IMG/VR virus record: IMGVR_UViG_2537561979_000009
Location: 1 to 41,073 of that record
Direction: 5' to 3' (one strand)
DNA length: 41,073 nt
Origin: a virus
Taxonomy: Duplodnaviria; Heunggongvirae; Uroviricota; Caudoviricetes
Of this stretch, positions 14,739 to 35,615 are shown piece by piece. Under the pieces are notes generated by a model. That model was not told the origin of the DNA and made no database searches. It worked only from the letters and a program-made list of their open reading frames with translations. Numbering within the stretch: the first letter of the stretch is position 1; the number at the start of each line of letters is the position of its first letter. The position numbers and the translations under genes are program-made.

Positions 14739-15086
14739 TTACGGCAGCGCCGCGTGACTCAGGACACTGCCTGCAAAGGCGTTGGCCTTTTTGTGTTCAT
14801 CCACACTGTCAGGCCAGCGGATTGCCTCCGTCGCAAAGGTTCCCGACTTGTAATACGTCAGCGCCGTCTCTGTGCCTTCAAGCGGCAGTACCAGTATGCC
14901 AACCGCACTACCGGCTTTCTGTCCGTCCCAGACCACCAGTTTCCCGGTGGCTTCATCCAGCATCAGGGGCGTCAGTGCCGGTGTTGCCGAGGAAATCCCG
15001 CTGCTGCCTGTGGCGGTGTGAGCCGGATCATTACCGGCAAAAATACGTACTTCCGCACGCTGTTCAGTGATGGTTTTCGTTACCAT
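14739..15086 (-). CDS. D: Head decoration protein D
   Basis: 115 aa, ...DPAHTATG...TPLMLD...WDG...KSGTF..., lambda D-like. Confidence 0.9.
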   Translation of the reverse strand: MVTKTITEQRAEVRIFAGNDPAHTATGSSGISSATPALTPLMLDEATGKLVVWDGQKAGSAVGILVLPLEGTETALTYYKSGTFATEAIRWPDSVDEHKKANAFAGSVLSHAALP

Positions 15087-30763: not shown

Positions 30764-31578
30764 CCCCTGAATCCTGCCGGGATCTGGCTGTAGTCCACGT
30801 TGTCGTAACTGGCTTTGAAGTACGGGTCCTCACGTCTGGCTGCAGATACCGCAGGAACTTCCCAGGGTTCTTCGAAATGACGATCCGGACCAAAGAACGT
30901 GACAGCCTGTTTCACAAATTGTGTGCCGCTGTTACCCATCGCAGATACCCAGCCCGCGTAGCGTTTCACACCTTCCAGCATGGTTTCGGGGTTTACCCCC
31001 TCATTCAAACGGGCTTTCCAGGCTTTGAAGGCTGCAGATTTTGAATTGCCACCAGCACGTTTGGGATATGCCAGCCATGCCTGCTCAAACTCCGGAGAGT
31101 ATTCCGGTCGGTTTGAACGAACTCGCACAGACTCATCAGCAGATGCACCAACAGCTATTGGTTCATTGACTGGTTCTTTGACTGGTTCAAAAGAGTGACT
31201 GGTTCTGGGTGAATCTCCTGCACTACCCCCTGGTGCAACTCCTGCACTACATGGTGAATTTGCTGCACCAGATAGTGAATTATTTGCACTACCCCCTAGT
31301 GAATCTCCTGCACCATCCAGATGAAGGAGATAGATATTACTTGAGTTACCTTTTTCACCTTTCCGGGTGACTTTTTTTACCAGCCCGGACTCACAAAGGG
31401 CCGCAATATGATTCATCACAGAACGTTTGCTAATCTCGCACTGGTCAGCAATATGCTGGTAGCTGGGCCAGCACTCACCCTGATCGCTGGCATTATCAGC
31501 CAGCTTGATCAGAACCAGTTTTCGCAATGGATTACCCACTCGAATTTTCATCGCTTTAACCATCAGCTCCATACTCAT
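30760..31578 (-). CDS. Replication initiation protein (lambda O analogue) with internal iterons
   Basis: N-terminal winged-helix region (LRKLVLIKLADNASDQGECWPSYQHIADQCEISKRSVMNHIAALCESGLV), Gly/Ser/Ala linker encoded by iteron DNA; early-right operon position. Confidence 0.6.
   Translation of the reverse strand: MSMELMVKAMKIRVGNPLRKLVLIKLADNASDQGECWPSYQHIADQCEISKRSVMNHIAALCESGLVKKVTRKGEKGNSSNIYLLHLDGAGDSLGGSANNSLSGAANSPCSAGVAPGGSAGDSPRTSHSFEPVKEPVNEPIAVGASADESVRVRSNRPEYSPEFEQAWLAYPKRAGGNSKSAAFKAWKARLNEGVNPETMLEGVKRYAGWVSAMGNSGTQFVKQAVTFFGPDRHFEEPWEVPAVSAARREDPYFKASYDNVDYSQIPAGFRG
31209..31313. repeat. Five phased iterons GTGAATnnnnTGCAC (one variant), candidate replication origin
   Basis: Copies begin near 31209, 31233, 31254, 31275 and 31299 (spacing 24/21/21/24 bp); additional TGACTGGTTC x3 at about 31166-31205. 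Confidence 0.65.
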
Positions 31579-31799
31579 GCTGCACCTCCGAGATGCTTCA
31601 TGTTTTTTCCGGAGCGAAAGGCTATAAGCGGCATACTGATGCGGTAATTACGGCCCAGCGGTTCACAAATCACCTTCTGACATTCACGGTCAACCAGGCT
31701 AACACGTAGAACATGCCCTGCAGGCGTGGTGTACCACTGACCCGGACGAGGACAACGGAAAGTCTGATTGGTAAAACGTTTGAAAATATTCCGGATCAT
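31575..31799 (-). CDS. Hypothetical small protein, 74 aa
   Basis: Start overlaps the Rha stop and its stop overlaps the O-like start. Confidence 0.4.
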   Translation of the reverse strand: MIRNIFKRFTNQTFRCPRPGQWYTTPAGHVLRVSLVDRECQKVICEPLGRNYRISMPLIAFRSGKNMKHLGGAA

Positions 31800-32959
31800 T
31801 TGCGCCCCCTTACCTCTGAAGGGTTCAGCGACAAATTTATGAGGCAGGCCAGTGCCGAAGCATCATTAATATAGTCATATAAGCTAACAGCCAGCGGAGA
31901 TTCGGCTTTTGCCAACATAGGATAAAGCTGCTGCAGCCAGACCTGATGAATTGATGAAATGTAGGAACAGAGAACGCTGGCGTTATGTGCAACGTCGCTC
32001 GGTACAGCGGGCTTTGAAAGCTGTTTCTCCATCTGGTTAAAGGCATTGATGTATGCCTCTTTGAACTGGGCAGCACGTTTCCCCGTGAAACCCATAGCAA
32101 GAAACGCAAAGCCGTCGCGGGTTATTTGATAGCAAGGAAGTTTGCGAGTACCGCCGTTGGGCTGGCGTACCAAAATTGATGTCTCCGCAAAATTGCGGGC
32201 ACAAAACTCTGGAGAACAATCCAAAATGCGGATCTTTTTCAGAACATCGTCATGACGTTTAGAGAAGAAGTCAGCAACAGCCAAAGAAGATGTAACAGCC
32301 TGACCATCAACGATGGCAATTTCAGGTTGAGAGAGGGTTGGGAGAGTAGTCATGGTGACAGCCCCGGTAGTCAGTTTTTTAGAAAACTCACCACATGGGA
32401 CGCCAATCACAGAGGTGGTGAGACGTACAGGGTTGGCGTTACCGGAGACTACCGAACCCGGCCCGACCGAAGTCGGCCCTGTACGCCCCACCATAATTTG
32501 GGCGTAGCAATGCTCATGACACGAAAAAACCGCATGAGCGCGGTTATGCTCAGTAATCAATTTCAGGACGCCAATCCCGGCACCCGTTTTATAAGGTGCC
32601 TGAACAGTGTAACGTCCCGGAATGGCAGAATCAATGTGCTGGTGGTCCTTCACACTCAACAAAATCACGCCTGAATTTCCACAAAGGACTAAAGCACTCA
32701 TGCGGGTAGTCTTTGCGAAAATAGATAACGCGCTGTGTTTCTGGTTCCCAACGAATAACATGAACATAAAGTCCTCTTCCGTCACGAAACCAGCGGTTAA
32801 GTTCCTGCACAACTCGCCCCCCACAGTCAGGTAAAGTTCTCTGTGGTTACTTACAGCCAGGTGATTTGGTAATCTGCATTCATGCCGTAACAACAGGTGT
32901 TCAGCCACGCGGACCACCAGCTGTTGCGACCAACGGTTATTTGCCGTTAAACTGTTCAT
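31796..32959 (-). CDS. Rha family phage regulatory protein; Rha domain in the C-terminal 185 aa, N-terminal 202 codons of uncertain reality
   Basis: MTTLPTLSQPEIAIVDGQAVTSSLAVADFFSKRHDDVLKKIRILDCSPEFCARNF...MGFTG matches the Phage_pRha pattern and begins at an internal Met near 32353; the ORF stays open to 32959. Confidence 0.6.
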   Translation of the reverse strand: MNSLTANNRWSQQLVVRVAEHLLLRHECRLPNHLAVSNHRELYLTVGGELCRNLTAGFVTEEDFMFMLFVGNQKHSALSIFAKTTRMSALVLCGNSGVILLSVKDHQHIDSAIPGRYTVQAPYKTGAGIGVLKLITEHNRAHAVFSCHEHCYAQIMVGRTGPTSVGPGSVVSGNANPVRLTTSVIGVPCGEFSKKLTTGAVTMTTLPTLSQPEIAIVDGQAVTSSLAVADFFSKRHDDVLKKIRILDCSPEFCARNFAETSILVRQPNGGTRKLPCYQITRDGFAFLAMGFTGKRAAQFKEAYINAFNQMEKQLSKPAVPSDVAHNASVLCSYISSIHQVWLQQLYPMLAKAESPLAVSLYDYINDASALACLINLSLNPSEVRGRK

Positions 32960-33507
32960 GCGTTAGTTTCTCCACAGACACAAAACGCCACGACGCCCGG
33001 AGCTGCACACTCGCGGGCGTCACTCTTTTCTGGAACGCAGAAAATTTTGTAGACCAGTGCCGCATGTTCCTGGAGCTTCGAAATCGACAGATACAACTCA
33101 TCATTAATTGCTGTCTGCTCATGTGGCTCCACTACCCCGTCTTCGATTGCCGAACGAATCTGCTTTGAGTAACTCCCGATCTGTTCAATAACTTCCAGTA
33201 GACGTTGGTTGATATCAGCGTTCTCTACTTCCTCAATTTCTGGAAGTGATACAAACACCCCACCAGCAGACTGTGCGACAGCATCCGCAATGTAGTGAGT
33301 GCCAGCAGCACGCTGTAAAATCATTGCCCATCCCAGCGGGAAAATCTGATCGCCATCTGCACGAAGGCGGTTGAATAAAGCGTTCTCTGTTACATCCAGC
33401 CACTCAGCAGCTTCAGCGTAGCCCCCCGGCAACGCCGCGATAGTTTTTCTGACAGCTTTCACGTACCACTCAGGCTGTTTTTCCACTTTCCAGTGATGAT
33501 TACCCAC
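32956..33507 (-). CDS. Putative CII-like regulatory protein, 183 aa, GTG start
   Basis: Second gene of the rightward operon after cro; start overlaps cro stop; family guessed by position. Confidence 0.35.
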   Translation of the reverse strand: MGNHHWKVEKQPEWYVKAVRKTIAALPGGYAEAAEWLDVTENALFNRLRADGDQIFPLGWAMILQRAAGTHYIADAVAQSAGGVFVSLPEIEEVENADINQRLLEVIEQIGSYSKQIRSAIEDGVVEPHEQTAINDELYLSISKLQEHAALVYKIFCVPEKSDARECAAPGVVAFCVCGETNA

Positions 33508-33760
33508 AGCTTACCTCCTGTTCCTGTGGTTTAAACCCATTCTGATTTTGGCTAGATTGAAAACGTGCCGGATAAAGAATCTGCATTTCGCTGATTTCAC
33601 CCTTAAAAAAATTGGCCAGACGTTCTGCAAGATCGATAGATGGAATTTGTTCCAATCTTTCAATACGACTCAGCGTCGCTGGATTGACCTGAACGCCAGC
33701 AGCAACATGCTGCAAAGTAAATCCGTGCGCCTTACGCACATTCCGTAATGGTGATTGCAT
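33500..33760 (-). CDS. cro: Cro-like repressor (XRE-type HTH)
   Basis: 86 aa, first gene divergent from cI, HTH ...QHVAAGVQVNPATLSRIERL...; coordinates from the ORF track. Confidence 0.75.
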   Translation of the reverse strand: MQSPLRNVRKAHGFTLQHVAAGVQVNPATLSRIERLEQIPSIDLAERLANFFKGEISEMQILYPARFQSSQNQNGFKPQEQEVSCG

Positions 33761-33857
33761 ATGACCTCCACATATTGCGTGATGAGCATATTATTTCACG
33801 CAAATATTTTGCGCAAGTTGATTTGCTTAACGCGCAATAAAGAAATGTAATAAACGC
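33761..33857. promoter_or_regulatory. OR region: divergent cI/cro promoters with operator-like dyads (TTGC-N7-GCAA class)
   Basis: TTGCTTAACGCGCAA at about 33823-33837, palindromic TTGCGCAA at about 33809-33816, inverted TTGCGTGA...TCACGCAA. Confidence 0.55.
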
Positions 33858-34550
33858 ATGAACATAGGAAACCGAGTCAGACAACTTCGCCAGGCGAAGA
33901 ACATGAAAATCGCCGATCTCGCTGAAGCAATAGGAGTGGATGCGGCGAATATCTCACGCCTGGAAACAGGTAAGCAGAAACAATTCACTGAACAAGCCCT
34001 GAGTAATATTGCCAGGAGCTTAGGTGTTGATATTGCTGATCTCTTTACCTCAGACTTCAAAAGTAATACTGTATGTAAAAACAGTATTAGTGAGGATGTT
34101 GCGCAGGTGAAGGATGTATTCCGTATTGAAATGCTGGATGTCAGTGCCAGTGCGGGAAATGGCCTTATCCAGGGCGGTGATGTCATTGATGTGATTCATG
34201 CCATTGAATACAGAACTGATAATGCTGTATCGATGTTTGGCGGACGGCCAGCCAATCACATTAAAGTTATCAACGTTCGTGGGGACAGTATGTGTCCAAC
34301 CATTGAACCAGGAGATCTCATCTTCGTTGATGTCAGTATCAATCAGTTTGATGGAGATGGTATCTATGTATTTGGTTTTGATGATAAAATTTATGTCAAA
34401 CGACTGCAAATGATACCTGACAAACTACTGGTGATTTCTGATAACCAGATTTACCGTGAATGGGGAATTACCAGCGAAAATGAACACCGGTTTATGGTCT
34501 TTGGAAAGGTCTTAATCAGCCAGTCACAAACCCTTAAGCGACACAATTAA
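33858..34550 (+). CDS. cI: CI repressor: N-terminal HTH plus C-terminal S24 (LexA-like) autoproteolytic domain
   Basis: 230 aa; HTH (MKIADLAEAIGVDAANISRLETGKQ), C-terminal GDSM serine and KR lysine motifs. Confidence 0.85.
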   Translation: MNIGNRVRQLRQAKNMKIADLAEAIGVDAANISRLETGKQKQFTEQALSNIARSLGVDIADLFTSDFKSNTVCKNSISEDVAQVKDVFRIEMLDVSASAGNGLIQGGDVIDVIHAIEYRTDNAVSMFGGRPANHIKVINVRGDSMCPTIEPGDLIFVDVSINQFDGDGIYVFGFDDKIYVKRLQMIPDKLLVISDNQIYREWGITSENEHRFMVFGKVLISQSQTLKRHN

Positions 34551-34570
34551 CCCTTACCTCCTCATCAATT

Positions 34571-34595
34571 AGCCACCCGAAGGTGGCTTTTCATT
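34571..34595 (+). terminator. Terminator candidate after cI (AGCCACC-CGAA-GGTGGCT then TTTTCATT)
   Basis: 7-bp perfect stem with tetraloop, 20 nt after the cI stop; short U-tract. Confidence 0.5.
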
Positions 34596-34605
34596 ACCCA
34601 TTAAA

Positions 34606-34658
34606 TTGCATATCTCGCAACAAAAACACTTGCACAATGCGCAACTTCATTTTATCTT
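34606..34658 (+). promoter_or_regulatory. OL/pL candidate: two 15-bp operator-like sites with possible -35 TTGCAC and -10 TATCTT
   Basis: TTGCATATCTCGCAA at about 34606-34620 and TTGCACAATGCGCAA at about 34630-34644, same TTGC-N7-GCAA pattern as OR, 24 bp apart. Confidence 0.45.
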
Positions 34659-35070
34659 TCTTTCCAGACCAACAAACAAGGTACTAACAAAATTTGGTTG
34701 TAACACGGCGTATGGCACATGCGTCGTTAGCGGTCTGGGGACGTTAAAGGGGACAATCCACTCCTTGCTCGGGCAAACAAACCAGGTAACCGGAATGTGC
34801 AAGTCAATGATGATGCTGATAAGACGCCTAACCAGCGTGGCGATTCGGTTTGACGCCTGGGAAGAGACCAGGGTGCAACGATGAGGGCATTTATGGAACC
34901 GCGACAAAGTGTGGTGCCGTAACTGGCTAAGTGCTCTCAGCGTTGTGGTAATCCGCGAAATGGCGCGGCGGTAAGTATAGCGGGGTTACTCTTTCCCCGT
35001 TGAGGACACCGGATTGTCAGGTTGACCATACGCCTGAGTGACAACCCCACCACAACAGCCACTGCTTTGG

Positions 35071-35202
35071 CGGTACCAGTTTGTACCCTTGCTTCCGGCT
35101 GGTACCGTCCTTTTTACAAAACAGAGAAGAGCATCACCGGACGACGGGCTCATAACCCAATCCACCCGGGCGGCTGCCACCGCAGGTGTTCTTCTCTGTT
35201 TT
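35071..35202 (+). ncRNA. Structured RNA element in the early-left leader (nested long stems); function unknown
   Basis: CGGTACCAG...CTGGTACCG (9 bp, about 35071-35107) then TCCTTTTT; AAAACAGAGAAGA (35118-35130) pairs with TCTTCTCTGTTTT (35190-35202) around GC-rich internal hairpins. Confidence 0.4.
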
Positions 35203-35252
35203 GTGGAGAAACCAACCGGCCTTGCAGGGTCGATATGATGAGGAGCAGCAAA

Positions 35253-35615
35253 ATGGCTAGCGAACGCAGTACTGATGTGCAGGCATTTATCGGGGAGCTG
35301 GACGGCGGCGTATTTGAAGCCAAATACGGCGCAGTTCTCAGTGAAGTCGCTTCCGGTGCGATGAACACGAAGAACAAAGGTAAGGTCTCGCTCAACCTGG
35401 AAATCGAACCATTTGATGAGAACCGTGTGAAAATCAAACATAAACTCTCATATGTTCGCCCGACTAACCGCGGGAAAATTTCCGAAGAAGACACCACCGA
35501 AACGCTGATGTATGTCAATCGCGGTGGTCGCCTGACTATTCTGCAGGAAGACCAGGGACAATTACTGACTCTTGCCGGTGAACCTGACGGAAAACTTCGC
35601 GCAGCAGGTCATTAA
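35253..35615 (+). CDS. Early-left accessory protein, 120 aa (YfdP-like by size and position)
   Basis: GAGGAG Shine-Dalgarno 8 nt before ATG at 35253; upstream part of the 197-aa ORF is rejected as leader. Confidence 0.5.
   Translation: MASERSTDVQAFIGELDGGVFEAKYGAVLSEVASGAMNTKNKGKVSLNLEIEPFDENRVKIKHKLSYVRPTNRGKISEEDTTETLMYVNRGGRLTILQEDQGQLLTLAGEPDGKLRAAGH

What the first reader, a model, noticed from the sequence alone, without database searches (positions are those of the whole stretch)
33761..34658. Shared operator architecture at OR and OL (TTGC-N7-GCAA)
The same 15-bp pattern occurs upstream of cro/cI and just after the cI terminator, where two copies lie 24 bp apart. This is consistent with one repressor controlling both early promoters and gives a testable immunity specificity.
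Basis: partly seen in the sequence, partly recalled or inferred. Interest (0 to 1): 0.35.

Follow-up and report, generated by a model that had tools for sequence, protein, structure and literature searches.

The report
Repressor operator sites flanking prophage cI
The repeated 15-bp palindromes on both sides of this prophage's repressor gene are very probably its operator sites: an ordinary lambda/HK022-style genetic switch, whose DNA specificity I could not find described anywhere.

Summary
TTGC-N7-GCAA occurs exactly at 33823, 34606 and 34630. The last two are 24 bp apart and begin 18 nt after the cI terminator stem. Three other exact matches are scattered, against 1.6 expected by chance. 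The gene context fits: cI (HTH + S24 peptidase) at 33858-34550 (+), divergent cro at 33500-33760 (-).

Relatives with 51-97% identical CI, from about ten genera, keep the outer TTGC(G)/(C)GCA(A/T) bases at the same positions while the centre varies. A weight matrix built only from relatives ranks the window's sites first.

- OR also has a one-mismatch site over the PR start (33775-33789).
- A half-site lies over the PR -35 (33802-33816).
- A probable fourth site lies inside cro (33725-33739).

Each promoter's -35 hexamer (TTGCxx) forms the left half of an operator. The 5-N5-5, 15-bp layout with an OL pair 24 bp apart matches phage HK022, which uses TGAAC-N5-GTTCA.

Verdict: a real operator set with an undescribed specificity in a very common E. 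coli/Shigella prophage group (mEp460, SfII, some Stx2a phages). It is a new member of a known kind. No binding has been shown.

The more interesting thing seen in passing is a roughly 200-nt covarying structured RNA just downstream of PL (34686-34891), absent from Rfam.

The parts
33725..33739 (.). Candidate fourth right-hand operator inside cro codons 8-12 (GTGCGCCTTACGCAC), at about +43 to +57 of the PR transcript
   Evidence: It is the only exact TGCG-N5-CGCA in the window. The homologous cro codons in relatives read TTGCGAAAATCGCAA/T, a full operator consensus, with Leu=TTG and Ser=TCG kept while neighbouring codons vary. The site scores 18.8 bits in phiNP and 12.3 in ST64B, but only 7.7 in the window.
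33775..33789 (.). ORa (OR1-like) TTGCGTGATGAGCAT, spanning about -8 to +7 of PR
   Evidence: One-mismatch match. PWM score 14.9, fourth best in the window. TTGCG and GCAT are invariant in 18 relatives while the centre varies.
33802..33816 (.). ORb (OR2-like) half-site AAATATTTTGCGCAA; on the minus strand its first 6 nt are the PR -35. The alternative register 33809-33823 is not excluded.
   Evidence: TTGCGCAA at 33809-33816 is invariant in 18 relatives. The left half is TTAC/TAGC/TGGC in Eeyore, phiNP and Klebsiella phages. In L092 the other register reads TTGCGCAAGTCGCAT. The register is an inference.
33823..33837 (.). ORc (OR3-like) TTGCTTAACGCGCAA, covering -35 to -21 of PRM
   Evidence: Exact match. 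PWM score 16.5. It lies at -35 relative to the cI ATG in all group-A relatives.
33788..33816 (-). Inferred PR for cro: -35 TTGCGC (33816..33811), 17-nt spacer, -10 TAATAT (33793..33788), start near 33781
   Evidence: Read from the sequence. The hexamers and 17-nt spacing are kept in SfII and Eeyore. The consensus scan does not list it.
33823..33851 (+). Inferred PRM: -35 TTGCTT, 17-nt spacer, -10 TGTAAT (33846-33851). The start falls at or next to the cI ATG (33858), giving a leaderless cI mRNA.
   Evidence: TGTAAT is invariant in 18 relatives and in 80 near-identical contigs. There is no Shine-Dalgarno sequence before the ATG. This is an inference by analogy with lambda PRM.
33858..34550 (+). 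cI repressor, 230 aa: N-terminal HTH and C-terminal S24 self-cleaving domain (Ala99-Gly100, Ser144, Lys181 invariant)
   Evidence: Pfam. Alignment of 7 homologues. The protein is 99-100% identical in the best 80 of 445 IMG/VR loci that encode a relative.
33500..33760 (-). cro-like HTH_3 protein, 86 aa
   Evidence: Pfam. Its HTH aligns with that of CI (ANISRLE versus ATLSRIE; 24% identity, E 4e-5).
34571..34588 (+). Terminator-like hairpin after cI
   Evidence: A hairpin followed by a T-run sits at the same place in relatives.
34606..34620 (.). OLa TTGCATATCTCGCAA, at about -59 to -45 of PL
   Evidence: Exact match. PWM score 18.8. Conserved in relatives, 22-24 bp before OLb.
34630..34644 (.). 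OLb TTGCACAATGCGCAA, at -35 to -21 of PL
   Evidence: Exact match. PWM score 19.7, the best in the window. Conserved in relatives.
34630..34658 (+). Inferred PL: -35 TTGCAC, 17-nt spacer, -10 TATCTT (34653-34658), start near 34665
   Evidence: TTGCnn-17-TATCTT is kept in SfII, Eeyore and phiNP. The downstream genes yfdP, yfdQ and yfdR are on the + strand. The consensus scan does not list it.
34686..34891 (+). Structured leader RNA ('M1') at the start of the PL transcript. It is what the OL/PL switch directly controls, but it is not part of the operator set.
   Evidence: Covariance model R1 scores 149 bits. On 42 diverse sequences, 96.9% of cells are paired against 29-48% when partners are slid, and 12 pairs show compensatory change. 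No Rfam match at E<=1.

Best explanation
This is the immunity switch of a lambdoid prophage of the mEp460 / SfII / ST64B kind.

Dimers of the 230-aa CI repressor recognise 15-bp near-palindromes of the form TTGCG-N5-CGCA(A/T).

On the right, sites overlap two back-to-back promoters:
- ORa covers the PR start.
- ORb covers the PR -35.
- ORc covers the PRM -35.
- A further site lies 50 bp into cro.

On the left, just past the cI terminator, OLb covers the PL -35 and OLa lies 24 bp upstream. In all three promoters the -35 hexamer (TTGCxx) is the left half of an operator, so a bound repressor should exclude RNA polymerase.

Occupied sites would shut off cro and the rightward early operon, and the leftward early operon (leader RNA, yfdP, yfdQ, yfdR). 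ORc occupancy would limit cI's own, probably leaderless, transcription. RecA-stimulated self-cleavage at Ala99-Gly100 would lift repression. Cro, whose HTH resembles CI's, presumably uses the same sites. OL and OR are about 780 bp apart, close to HK022's roughly 700 bp, so OL-OR looping is plausible.

Shown here: the sites, their positions, their conservation and the protein domains. Inferred: binding, promoter identity, order of occupancy, cooperativity and looping.
For: Motif clustering: 3 of 6 exact matches lie in 212 bp flanking cI.

Domains and gene order.

Independent weight matrix: built only from 20 sites of five relatives, it ranks 34630, 34606, 33823 and 33775 as the top four of about 41,000 positions, at 19.7, 18.8, 16.5 and 14.9 bits. 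The next hit scores 13.3.

Phylogenetic footprint:
- Across CI homologues of 51-97% identity, half-sites and the TGTAAT/TATCTT hexamers are invariant and site centres are free.
- In 80 contigs with CI at least 99% identical, substitutions fall almost only in the central 7 bp.
- A sister clade with a different recognition helix (VGNLSRLERGxQG instead of AANISRLETGKQK) uses ATGCG-N5-CGCAT at the same positions.

HK022 parallel: the GenBank record annotates 15-bp operators TGAAC-N5-GTTCA, with an OL pair 24 bp apart and pL/pR hexamers abutting or overlapping them by a base or two. HK022 CI loops OL-OR over about 700 bp and has an extra operator downstream of OR (PMC8053113).

Cleavage residues: Ala-Gly, Ser and Lys are invariant.
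Against: - There is no binding, footprint or transcript-start data for this repressor in anything I could search.
- The consensus promoter scan does not report PR, PRM or PL. It reports a different weak rightward candidate at 33767-33794.
- ORb is only a half-site in the window and its register is ambiguous.
- The site with the best consensus match at OR is the one over PRM, unlike lambda where OR3 is weakest. The autoregulatory logic therefore cannot be read off.
- The intragenic site is weak in the window (7.7 bits), and its conservation is partly forced by the Cro protein sequence.
- One of 200 mononucleotide shuffles gave a 20.5-bit hit, and four scattered window hits score 12-13 bits against 0.7 hits of at least 12 bits expected.
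Confidence: 0.85

Rival explanations
1. The repeats are mainly promoter elements. TTGC is the start of a -35 hexamer, and the palindromy is incidental, so no repressor specificity is encoded.
For: In all three inferred promoters the TTGC of a site coincides with the -35 hexamer. That alone would conserve the left half.
Against: - The right halves (CGCAA/GCAT), which lie in promoter spacers, are conserved as strongly as the left halves.
- ORa and OLa do not overlap a -35 at all.
- The sister clade changes both halves symmetrically, ATGCG...CGCAT.
Confidence: 0.04
2. The sites are bound chiefly by another protein, such as Cro alone, the CP76-type CII (32956-33507), or a host regulator, and CI uses different sequences.
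For: - Cro has a similar HTH.
- Lambda CII recognises TTGC repeats (textbook knowledge).
- An inverse palindrome CGCAA-N5-TTGCG lies at 33799-33813.
Against: - Lambda-type CII boxes are direct repeats (TTGC-N6-TTGC); these are inverted with N7.
- The sites track the CI recognition-helix clade.
- No other repeated symmetric element is conserved in OR or OL.
- The inverse palindrome is absent from Eeyore and phiNP.
- Cro sharing the sites is expected in this kind of switch and does not conflict with CI binding them.
Confidence: 0.07
3. The palindromes act as RNA hairpins, for example a minus-strand terminator at 34644..34630, rather than as DNA-binding sites.
For: The terminator scan lists 34644-34630 and 33740-33724 on the minus strand.
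Against: - Stems of 4-6 bp with free loop sequence are marginal.
- No minus-strand gene ends at OL.
- Conservation is of specific bases rather than of pairing. GCAT replaces GCAA at ORa in every relative, which breaks the outermost pair.
Confidence: 0.02

Closest known systems
Phage HK022 immunity region (cI flanked by OL and OR; Carlson & Little 1993, as cited in PMC8053113; GenBank X16093)
   Same: - 15-bp operators built 5-N5-5, with an OL pair 24 bp apart and OR sites 24 and 33 bp apart (here 27 and 21).
- cI lies directly between OL and OR, with no rex genes: about 700 bp in HK022, about 780 bp here.
- An extra operator lies downstream of OR.
- No N gene.
- CI is 43% identical over residues 19-228.
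   Different: - The half-site is TGAAC/GTTCA, not TTGCG/CGCAA.
- HK022's extra operator is about 300 bp downstream of OR, not 50 bp.
- HK022 has a 70-nt putL RNA right after PL. A model of the window's leader RNA does not match HK022.
- Cro is a different protein.
Phage lambda OR/OL switch
   Same: - Divergent cI and cro.
- Three sites at OR overlapping PR and PRM, and a second set at OL over PL downstream of cI.
- A leaderless cI message from PRM (inferred here).
- CI with an S24 self-cleavage domain (lambda facts from textbook knowledge).
   Different: - Lambda sites are 17 bp (TATCACCGCCAGTGGTA type), three at OL; rexAB lie between cI and OL; N-dependent antitermination.
- Here the PRM-proximal site covers the -35 (centre about -28), not the region around -20. 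The upstream site is centred near -49 rather than -42, so lambda-style activation of PRM from OR2 cannot be assumed.
Phage 434 and P22 operators (ACAA-N6-TTGT; ANTNAAG-N4-CTTNANT)
   Same: Conserved outer bases contacted by an HTH_3-type repressor, with a sequence-free centre. In 434 the centre tunes affinity (textbook knowledge). The closest solved sequence is a 434-derived domain, only at E 2e-4.
   Different: Different length and half-site. No close structural homologue is available to assign contacts.

Membership tests
Lambdoid CI/Cro immunity switch | Divergently transcribed repressor and cro genes separated by a short control region | tested here: met
   cI 33858-34550 (+), cro 33500-33760 (-), 97-bp gap.
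Lambdoid CI/Cro immunity switch | Repressor with an N-terminal HTH and a C-terminal LexA-like S24 domain carrying Ala-Gly, Ser and Lys | tested here: met
   Peptidase_S24 6.5e-19 and HTH_3/HTH_26. A99-G100, S144 and K181 are invariant in 7 homologues.
Lambdoid CI/Cro immunity switch | Several related, partly symmetric sites at OR overlapping PR and PRM, and a second set at OL overlapping PL | tested here: met
   Sites at 33775, 33802 (half-site), 33823, 34606 and 34630. Positions relative to the conserved hexamers are kept in relatives. The promoters themselves are inferred.
Lambdoid CI/Cro immunity switch | Repressor binds these sites and represses PR and PL; Cro competes for them | not testable with these tools
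   This needs EMSA or footprinting and reporter assays. No published data were found.
Lambdoid CI/Cro immunity switch | Rest of the element is lambdoid: cII-like gene, replication genes, integrase | tested here: met
   Phage_CP76, DnaD_N/HTH_36, Dam, RusA, KilA-N and integrase. The immunity region is 96-98% identical to mEp460, PhiR63_1 and Stx2a_1447.
HK022-type immunity group | 15-bp 5-N5-5 operators, paired 24 bp apart at OL, with cI directly between OL and OR | tested here: met
HK022-type immunity group | Operator half-site TGAAC, that is, the same immunity specificity | tested here: not met
   HK022 has TGAACTTATGGTTCA; the window has TTGCG-N5-CGCAA.
HK022-type immunity group | put antiterminator RNA (about 70 nt, two stems) immediately after PL | tested here: inconclusive
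   The window has a different, roughly 200-nt structured RNA at 34686-34891. Its model does not hit HK022 or HK639. The resemblance of its first hairpin to putL stem I was seen by eye only.
Lambda CII activator boxes | Direct repeats TTGC-N6-TTGC flanking a -35 region | tested here: not met
   The repeats here are inverted, with N7.

The most novel reading that the evidence does not exclude
The switch may differ from the lambda plan in two ways.

1. The right-hand set may include a working operator inside the cro coding sequence. Synonymous codons there are held fixed in relatives. It would act as a roadblock or as a partner for looping with OL.

2. What OL/PL directly controls may not be an N-type protein. 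It may be an undescribed, roughly 200-nt pseudoknotted leader RNA (34686-34891). Temperate phages of several unrelated kinds share this RNA: lambdoid PL leaders, the C1-controlled ban operon of P1, P7 and SJ46, and epsilon15-like phages. It is always co-oriented with adjacent tRNAs. It could be a new class of cis-acting RNA that protects long untranslated phage transcripts from termination, working like HK022 put without belonging to that family.
Probability: 0.3. Interest if true: 0.65.

Novelty: new member of a known kind. Interest (0 to 1): 0.3.

Why it matters
This repressor is very common. 445 viral contigs encode a relative of it, and the best 80 are 99-100% identical. The carriers include mEp460, the Shigella serotype-converting phage SfII and some Stx2a-converting phages.

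Knowing the operator set defines an immunity group. It predicts which prophages exclude which superinfecting phages. It also gives defined parts (repressor, three promoters, five to six sites) for induction studies of Stx phages and for synthetic switches.

The sister clade (ATGCG-N5-CGCAT, with a changed recognition helix) offers a natural pair for working out how specificity changes. The architecture itself adds nothing conceptually new to the lambda/HK022 picture.

Tried and rejected
- **One-mismatch enumeration.** No window-wide enrichment (20 found, 27.9 expected). It was useful only locally.
- **Consensus promoter scan.** It missed all three inferred promoters and proposed 33767-33794 (+), whose -35 is the complement of the cro ribosome-binding site and is not conserved. 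I rejected that candidate as PRM.
- **8-bp inverted repeat TTGCGTGA-N13-TCACGCAA (33775-33803) and inverse palindrome CGCAA-N5-TTGCG (33799-33813).** Neither is conserved in Eeyore or phiNP. I do not treat them as sites.
- **Cluster of sub-threshold matches at 31427-32190.** Only 31427 recurs, in ST64B, inside the homologous replication gene. None recurs in phiNP. I treat the cluster as chance or shared ancestry.
- **Close relatives.** The best 80 of the 445 IMG/VR loci were 99-100% identical in CI and useless for footprinting between clades, though useful for within-group variation.
- **Literature.** Searches for SfII, SfV, ST64B and mEp460 operators, and for the RNA's core sequence, found nothing relevant. 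Alonso 2005 (PMC1291290) is not held, and I did not try the ST64B genome paper.
- **PDB sequence search.** Only distant HTH and UmuD hits, so contacts could not be assigned.
- **Leader RNA.** Rfam gave no match at E<=1. The covariance model did not hit HK022 or HK639.
Full report
**Observation**

The pattern TTGC-N7-GCAA occurs exactly six times in the 41,073-bp window: at 14822, 20368, 28020, 33823, 34606 and 34630. Dinucleotide-preserving shuffles give a mean of 1.64, and 1 of 100 shuffles reached six.

Three of the six lie in the two short non-coding stretches that flank one gene. One is 35 nt before its ATG (33823-33837). Two are 24 bp apart and begin 18 nt after the stem of a terminator-like hairpin at 34571-34588. 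Those two stretches total 212 bp and would hold about 0.0085 matches by chance. By my arithmetic, the Poisson P for three is about 1e-7.

The other three matches have G+C-rich centres and score poorly on a matrix built from relatives. They fit the chance expectation.

**Context**

- The flanked gene (33858-34550, +) encodes a 230-aa protein with an N-terminal Cro/C1-type HTH and a C-terminal Peptidase_S24 domain (6.5e-19).
- The divergent gene (33500-33760, -) encodes an 86-aa HTH_3 protein.
- Next on the minus strand comes a CP76-type CII gene.
- Further along the minus strand are a DnaD-like replication gene, PerC, Dam, RusA and KilA-N. On the plus strand after cI come yfdP, yfdQ (DUF2303) and yfdR-like genes. 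An integrase gene sits at the window's end, on the minus strand.
- The 1.4-kb immunity region is 96-98% identical to phages PhiR63_1, mEp460, 1720a-02, Stx2a_1447 and WGPS2, and 91% identical to Shigella phage SfII.
- 445 IMG/VR stretches encode a relative of the repressor, and the best 80 are 99-100% identical to it.

This is a common lambdoid prophage of E. coli and Shigella.

**Are the sites more than a coincidence of promoter-like sequence?**

I fetched relatives whose CI is 51-97% identical:
- SfII, ST64B, two Klebsiella phages, phiNP, Eeyore, Flotzy and ENT47670.
- 77 loci from one-genome-per-species bacterial assemblies.

In every relative whose recognition helix reads (A/G)(A/G)N(I/V)SR(L/V)ETGKQK, a TTGC-N7-GCAA site starts 35-36 nt before the cI ATG. 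In most of them a TTGCG-N5-xGCAT site lies 48 nt further left. Where the PL region is present, two sites follow the cI terminator, 22-24 bp apart.

An alignment of 18 such control regions shows the following stretches invariant, while the five to seven central bases of each site vary freely:
- TTGCG (33775-79)
- GCAT (33786-89)
- TTGCGCAA (33809-16)
- TTGC (33823-26)
- GCAA (33834-37)
- TGTAAT (33846-51)

In 80 contigs with essentially the same CI, substitutions in the sites are almost all central. OLa, for example, appears as TTGCATATCTCGCAA, TTGCACATCTCGCAA, TTGCATGTCTCGCAA, TTGCGCACATCGCAA and others.

A weight matrix built from 20 sites of five relatives only, not from the window, puts 34630 (19.7 bits), 34606 (18.8), 33823 (16.5) and 33775 (14.9) at the top of the window. 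The next hit scores 13.3.

A sister clade has about 50% identical CI and the helix VGNLSRLERGxQG (ENT47670, Pantoea, Erwinia, Atlantibacter and others). It carries ATGCG-N5-CGCAT at the same positions, and its OL sites abut each other. Sites that track the repressor clade in this way are what operators should do.

OR is not a single site.
- 33775-33789 (TTGCGTGATGAGCAT) is a one-mismatch site, conserved as TTGCG-N5-NGCAT.
- Between it and 33823 lies the invariant palindrome TTGCGCAA. Read as 33802-33816, it is a half-site in the window (AAATATTTTGCGCAA) but closer to a full site in Eeyore and phiNP (TTACGACTTGCGCAA) and in Klebsiella phages (TAGCGAATTGCGCAA).
- A second register (33809-33823) is a good site only in L092, so the register stays uncertain.
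- A fourth candidate lies inside cro, codons 8-12: GTGCGCCTTACGCAC (33725-33739). It is the only exact TGCG-N5-CGCA in the window. In relatives the same codons read TTGCGAAAATCGCAA or ...CGCAT. Leu is always TTG and Ser always TCG, while neighbouring codons change synonymously. That site scores 18.8 bits in phiNP and 12.3 in ST64B.

Part of this last conservation is forced by the Cro protein, and the window's copy is weak (7.7 bits). I rate it probable rather than established.

**Geometry and promoters**

The promoters were read from the sequence and checked against relatives.

| Promoter | -35 | Spacer | -10 | Start |
|---|---|---|---|---|
| PR (minus strand) | TTGCGC, 33816..33811 | 17 nt | TAATAT, 33793..33788 | near 33781 |
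| PRM | TTGCTT, 33823-28 | 17 nt | TGTAAT, 33846-51 | at or next to the cI ATG |
| PL | TTGCAC, 34630-35 | 17 nt | TATCTT, 34653-58 | near 34665 |

There is no Shine-Dalgarno sequence before the cI ATG, so the cI message is probably leaderless, as it is from lambda PRM.

Hexamers and spacers are kept in SfII, Eeyore and the wider alignment. In each case the -35 hexamer is the first six bases of an operator: ORb read on the minus strand, ORc and OLb.

Positions of the other sites:
- ORa spans about -8 to +7 of PR.
- OLa spans about -59 to -45 of PL.
- The cro-internal site spans about +43 to +57 of PR.

Centre-to-centre distances are 50, 27 and 21 bp on the right, 24 bp on the left, and 783 bp from ORc to OLa.

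One caveat applies. The consensus scan lists none of these promoters, because TTGCxx matches TTGACA at only three positions. It proposes instead a non-conserved candidate at 33767-33794. The promoter assignments are inferences from conservation and spacing.

**Mechanism**

The best-supported reading is the standard one.
- CI dimers occupy these sites and exclude RNA polymerase from PR and PL.
- Occupancy of ORc limits cI transcription.
- Self-cleavage at Ala99-Gly100, with Ser144 and Lys181 invariant, lifts repression after DNA damage.
- Cro, whose HTH aligns with CI's (ANISRLE versus ATLSRIE), uses the same sites.

I cannot infer the order of occupancy. The best consensus match at OR is the PRM-proximal site, the opposite of lambda. 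The upstream site sits near -49 rather than -42 of PRM, so lambda-style activation should not be assumed.

**Comparison with known systems**

The closest described system is HK022. Its GenBank record annotates 15-bp operators TGAAC-N5-GTTCA. The OL pair is 24 bp apart, and OR sites are 24 and 33 bp apart. HK022 CI is 43% identical to this one over residues 19-228.

According to PMC8053113, HK022's OL and OR are about 700 bp apart, its CI binds cooperatively and loops OL to OR, and it has a further operator about 300 bp downstream of OR that contributes to immunity. The window shares the layout but not the half-site, so it belongs to a different immunity group.

Literature searches for SfII, SfV, ST64B and mEp460 found no description of these operators. 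Several older papers are not in the library (one look-up failed), so I cannot rule out a prior description. No close solved structure exists.

**What PL drives**

Between the inferred PL start (about 34665) and yfdP (35253) lie about 590 nt without a convincing ORF. The stretch folds more stably than shuffles, with z = -4.5. It is a mosaic.

The first module (34686-34891) recurs at 76-88% identity in several places:
- P7, SJ46 and D6 (and P1 itself, by the match), in the gap between the tci genes and the next gene (ban in P7 and SJ46; in P7 just after a tRNA), within the C1-controlled ban operon.
- Epsilon15-like phages phiV10, TL-2011b, SPN1S and 66FD.
- mEp390, just after its repressor gene.
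- Klebsiella phage Kp4871, after its PL.
- Citrobacter prophages.

A scan of viral contigs with its invariant 19-mer returned at least 119 stretches, from which I extracted 97 distinct sequences.

I counted a hand-specified structure of six helices, including a crossing pair that would form a pseudoknot, on 42 representatives below 94% identity:
- 96.9% of cells are paired, against 29-48% when partners are slid.
- 12 pairs show changes on both sides, in 96 cells.
- 0 of 500 shuffles reach the observed covariation score.

Rfam 15 has no match even at E<=1.

In 44 of 128 loci a co-oriented tRNA lies 5-7 nt upstream or within roughly 50-120 nt downstream. In 23 loci a TTGC-N7-GCAA-type site lies within 150 nt upstream. 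In two contigs the element starts about 10 nt after a TATCTT -10 that is preceded by such operators.

The ST64B/phiNP/LLS group is reported to lack N and has been suggested to use put-like RNA (PMC12315714). HK022 putL occupies +3 to +72 of the PL transcript (PMC9378689). A covariance model of the window's element does not hit HK022 or HK639. Its first hairpin (CGGCG...CGUCG) resembles putL stem I only by eye.

I therefore record it as a real, apparently uncurated structured RNA. An antitermination role is a hypothesis.

**Verdict**

The finding is right, and its interpretation is supported by strong comparative evidence. It is an ordinary lambdoid/HK022-type operator arrangement with a new specificity. 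Interest is modest. The neighbouring leader RNA is the more unusual object.

Noticed in passing
window 34686-34891 (+): A roughly 200-nt conserved structured RNA at the start of the PL leader. It is shared with P1, P7, SJ46 and D6 (ban operon), with epsilon15-like phages, and with other lambdoid PL leaders. It has six covarying helices including a putative pseudoknot, and invariant GGUAGCCGGAAUGUGCAAG and GGAAGAG loops. Adjacent tRNAs are always co-oriented. There is no Rfam match at E<=1.
   Followed up: partly
window 34953-35048 and 35067-35230 (+): Two further leader modules. The first matches the P7 ban-operon leader just downstream of the C1 operators Op(ban) (L166 153-249). The second is a long inverted repeat (about 35116-35137 with 35184-35205) directly upstream of yfdP, shared with SfII, ST64B, phiNP and Eeyore.
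   Followed up: partly
window 32411-32498 (-) and 32523-32599 (-): Rfam C4 antisense RNA (82 bits) and isrK (60 bits) lie between the cII-like gene and an Ash/Rha (antirepressor-type) reading frame at 31796-32959. This looks like a second, P1/P7 immI-like or Gifsy-like immunity layer in the same prophage.
   Followed up: no
L083 2306-2395, L001 3831-3920, L002 3357-3446, L085 2307-2396, L093, L098: Relatives that lack the window's leader RNA carry a different conserved element of about 70 nt. In most it follows PL directly; in SfII it follows a short stretch shared with the window. The sequence is GCGAACAGGCAGGACGCCCACGAAGUAGCCGCC-[hairpin]-GAUGAUUCGC. Covariation is visible by eye in the inner hairpin (CCGGU/ACCGG, CCUGG/CCAGG, CCCGG/CCGGG, CCCGA/UCGGG) and in the closing helix (GCGAA/UUCGC versus ACGAA/UUCGU). 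It may be put-like.
   Followed up: partly
L087, L109-L120, L141 (sister clade of CI, about 50% identity): The operators change to ATGCG-N5-CGCAT together with the recognition helix. The two OL sites abut (15-bp step) and lie about 130-150 nt after the cI stop instead of about 55. Two leaders (L117, L099) contain an rrn-type boxA, GCTCTTTAACA.
   Followed up: partly
window 31427-32190: Four one-mismatch matches to the motif cluster within 760 bp (31427, 31978, 32095, 32176), inside the Rha-like and replication genes. Only 31427 recurs, in ST64B, within the homologous gene. None recurs in phiNP. This is probably chance.
   Followed up: partly
window 12513, 26894, 38293: Scattered weight-matrix hits of 12-13 bits. 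Eight positions in the window score at least 12 bits (these three, 31978 and the four operator sites), against 0.7 expected from mononucleotide shuffles. I did not examine these three further.
   Followed up: no
window 34560-35300: Parts of the PL leader and yfdP region match 3,936 of 5,426 complete E. coli genomes, often in several copies per genome. Only yfdP is annotated under the match.
   Followed up: no
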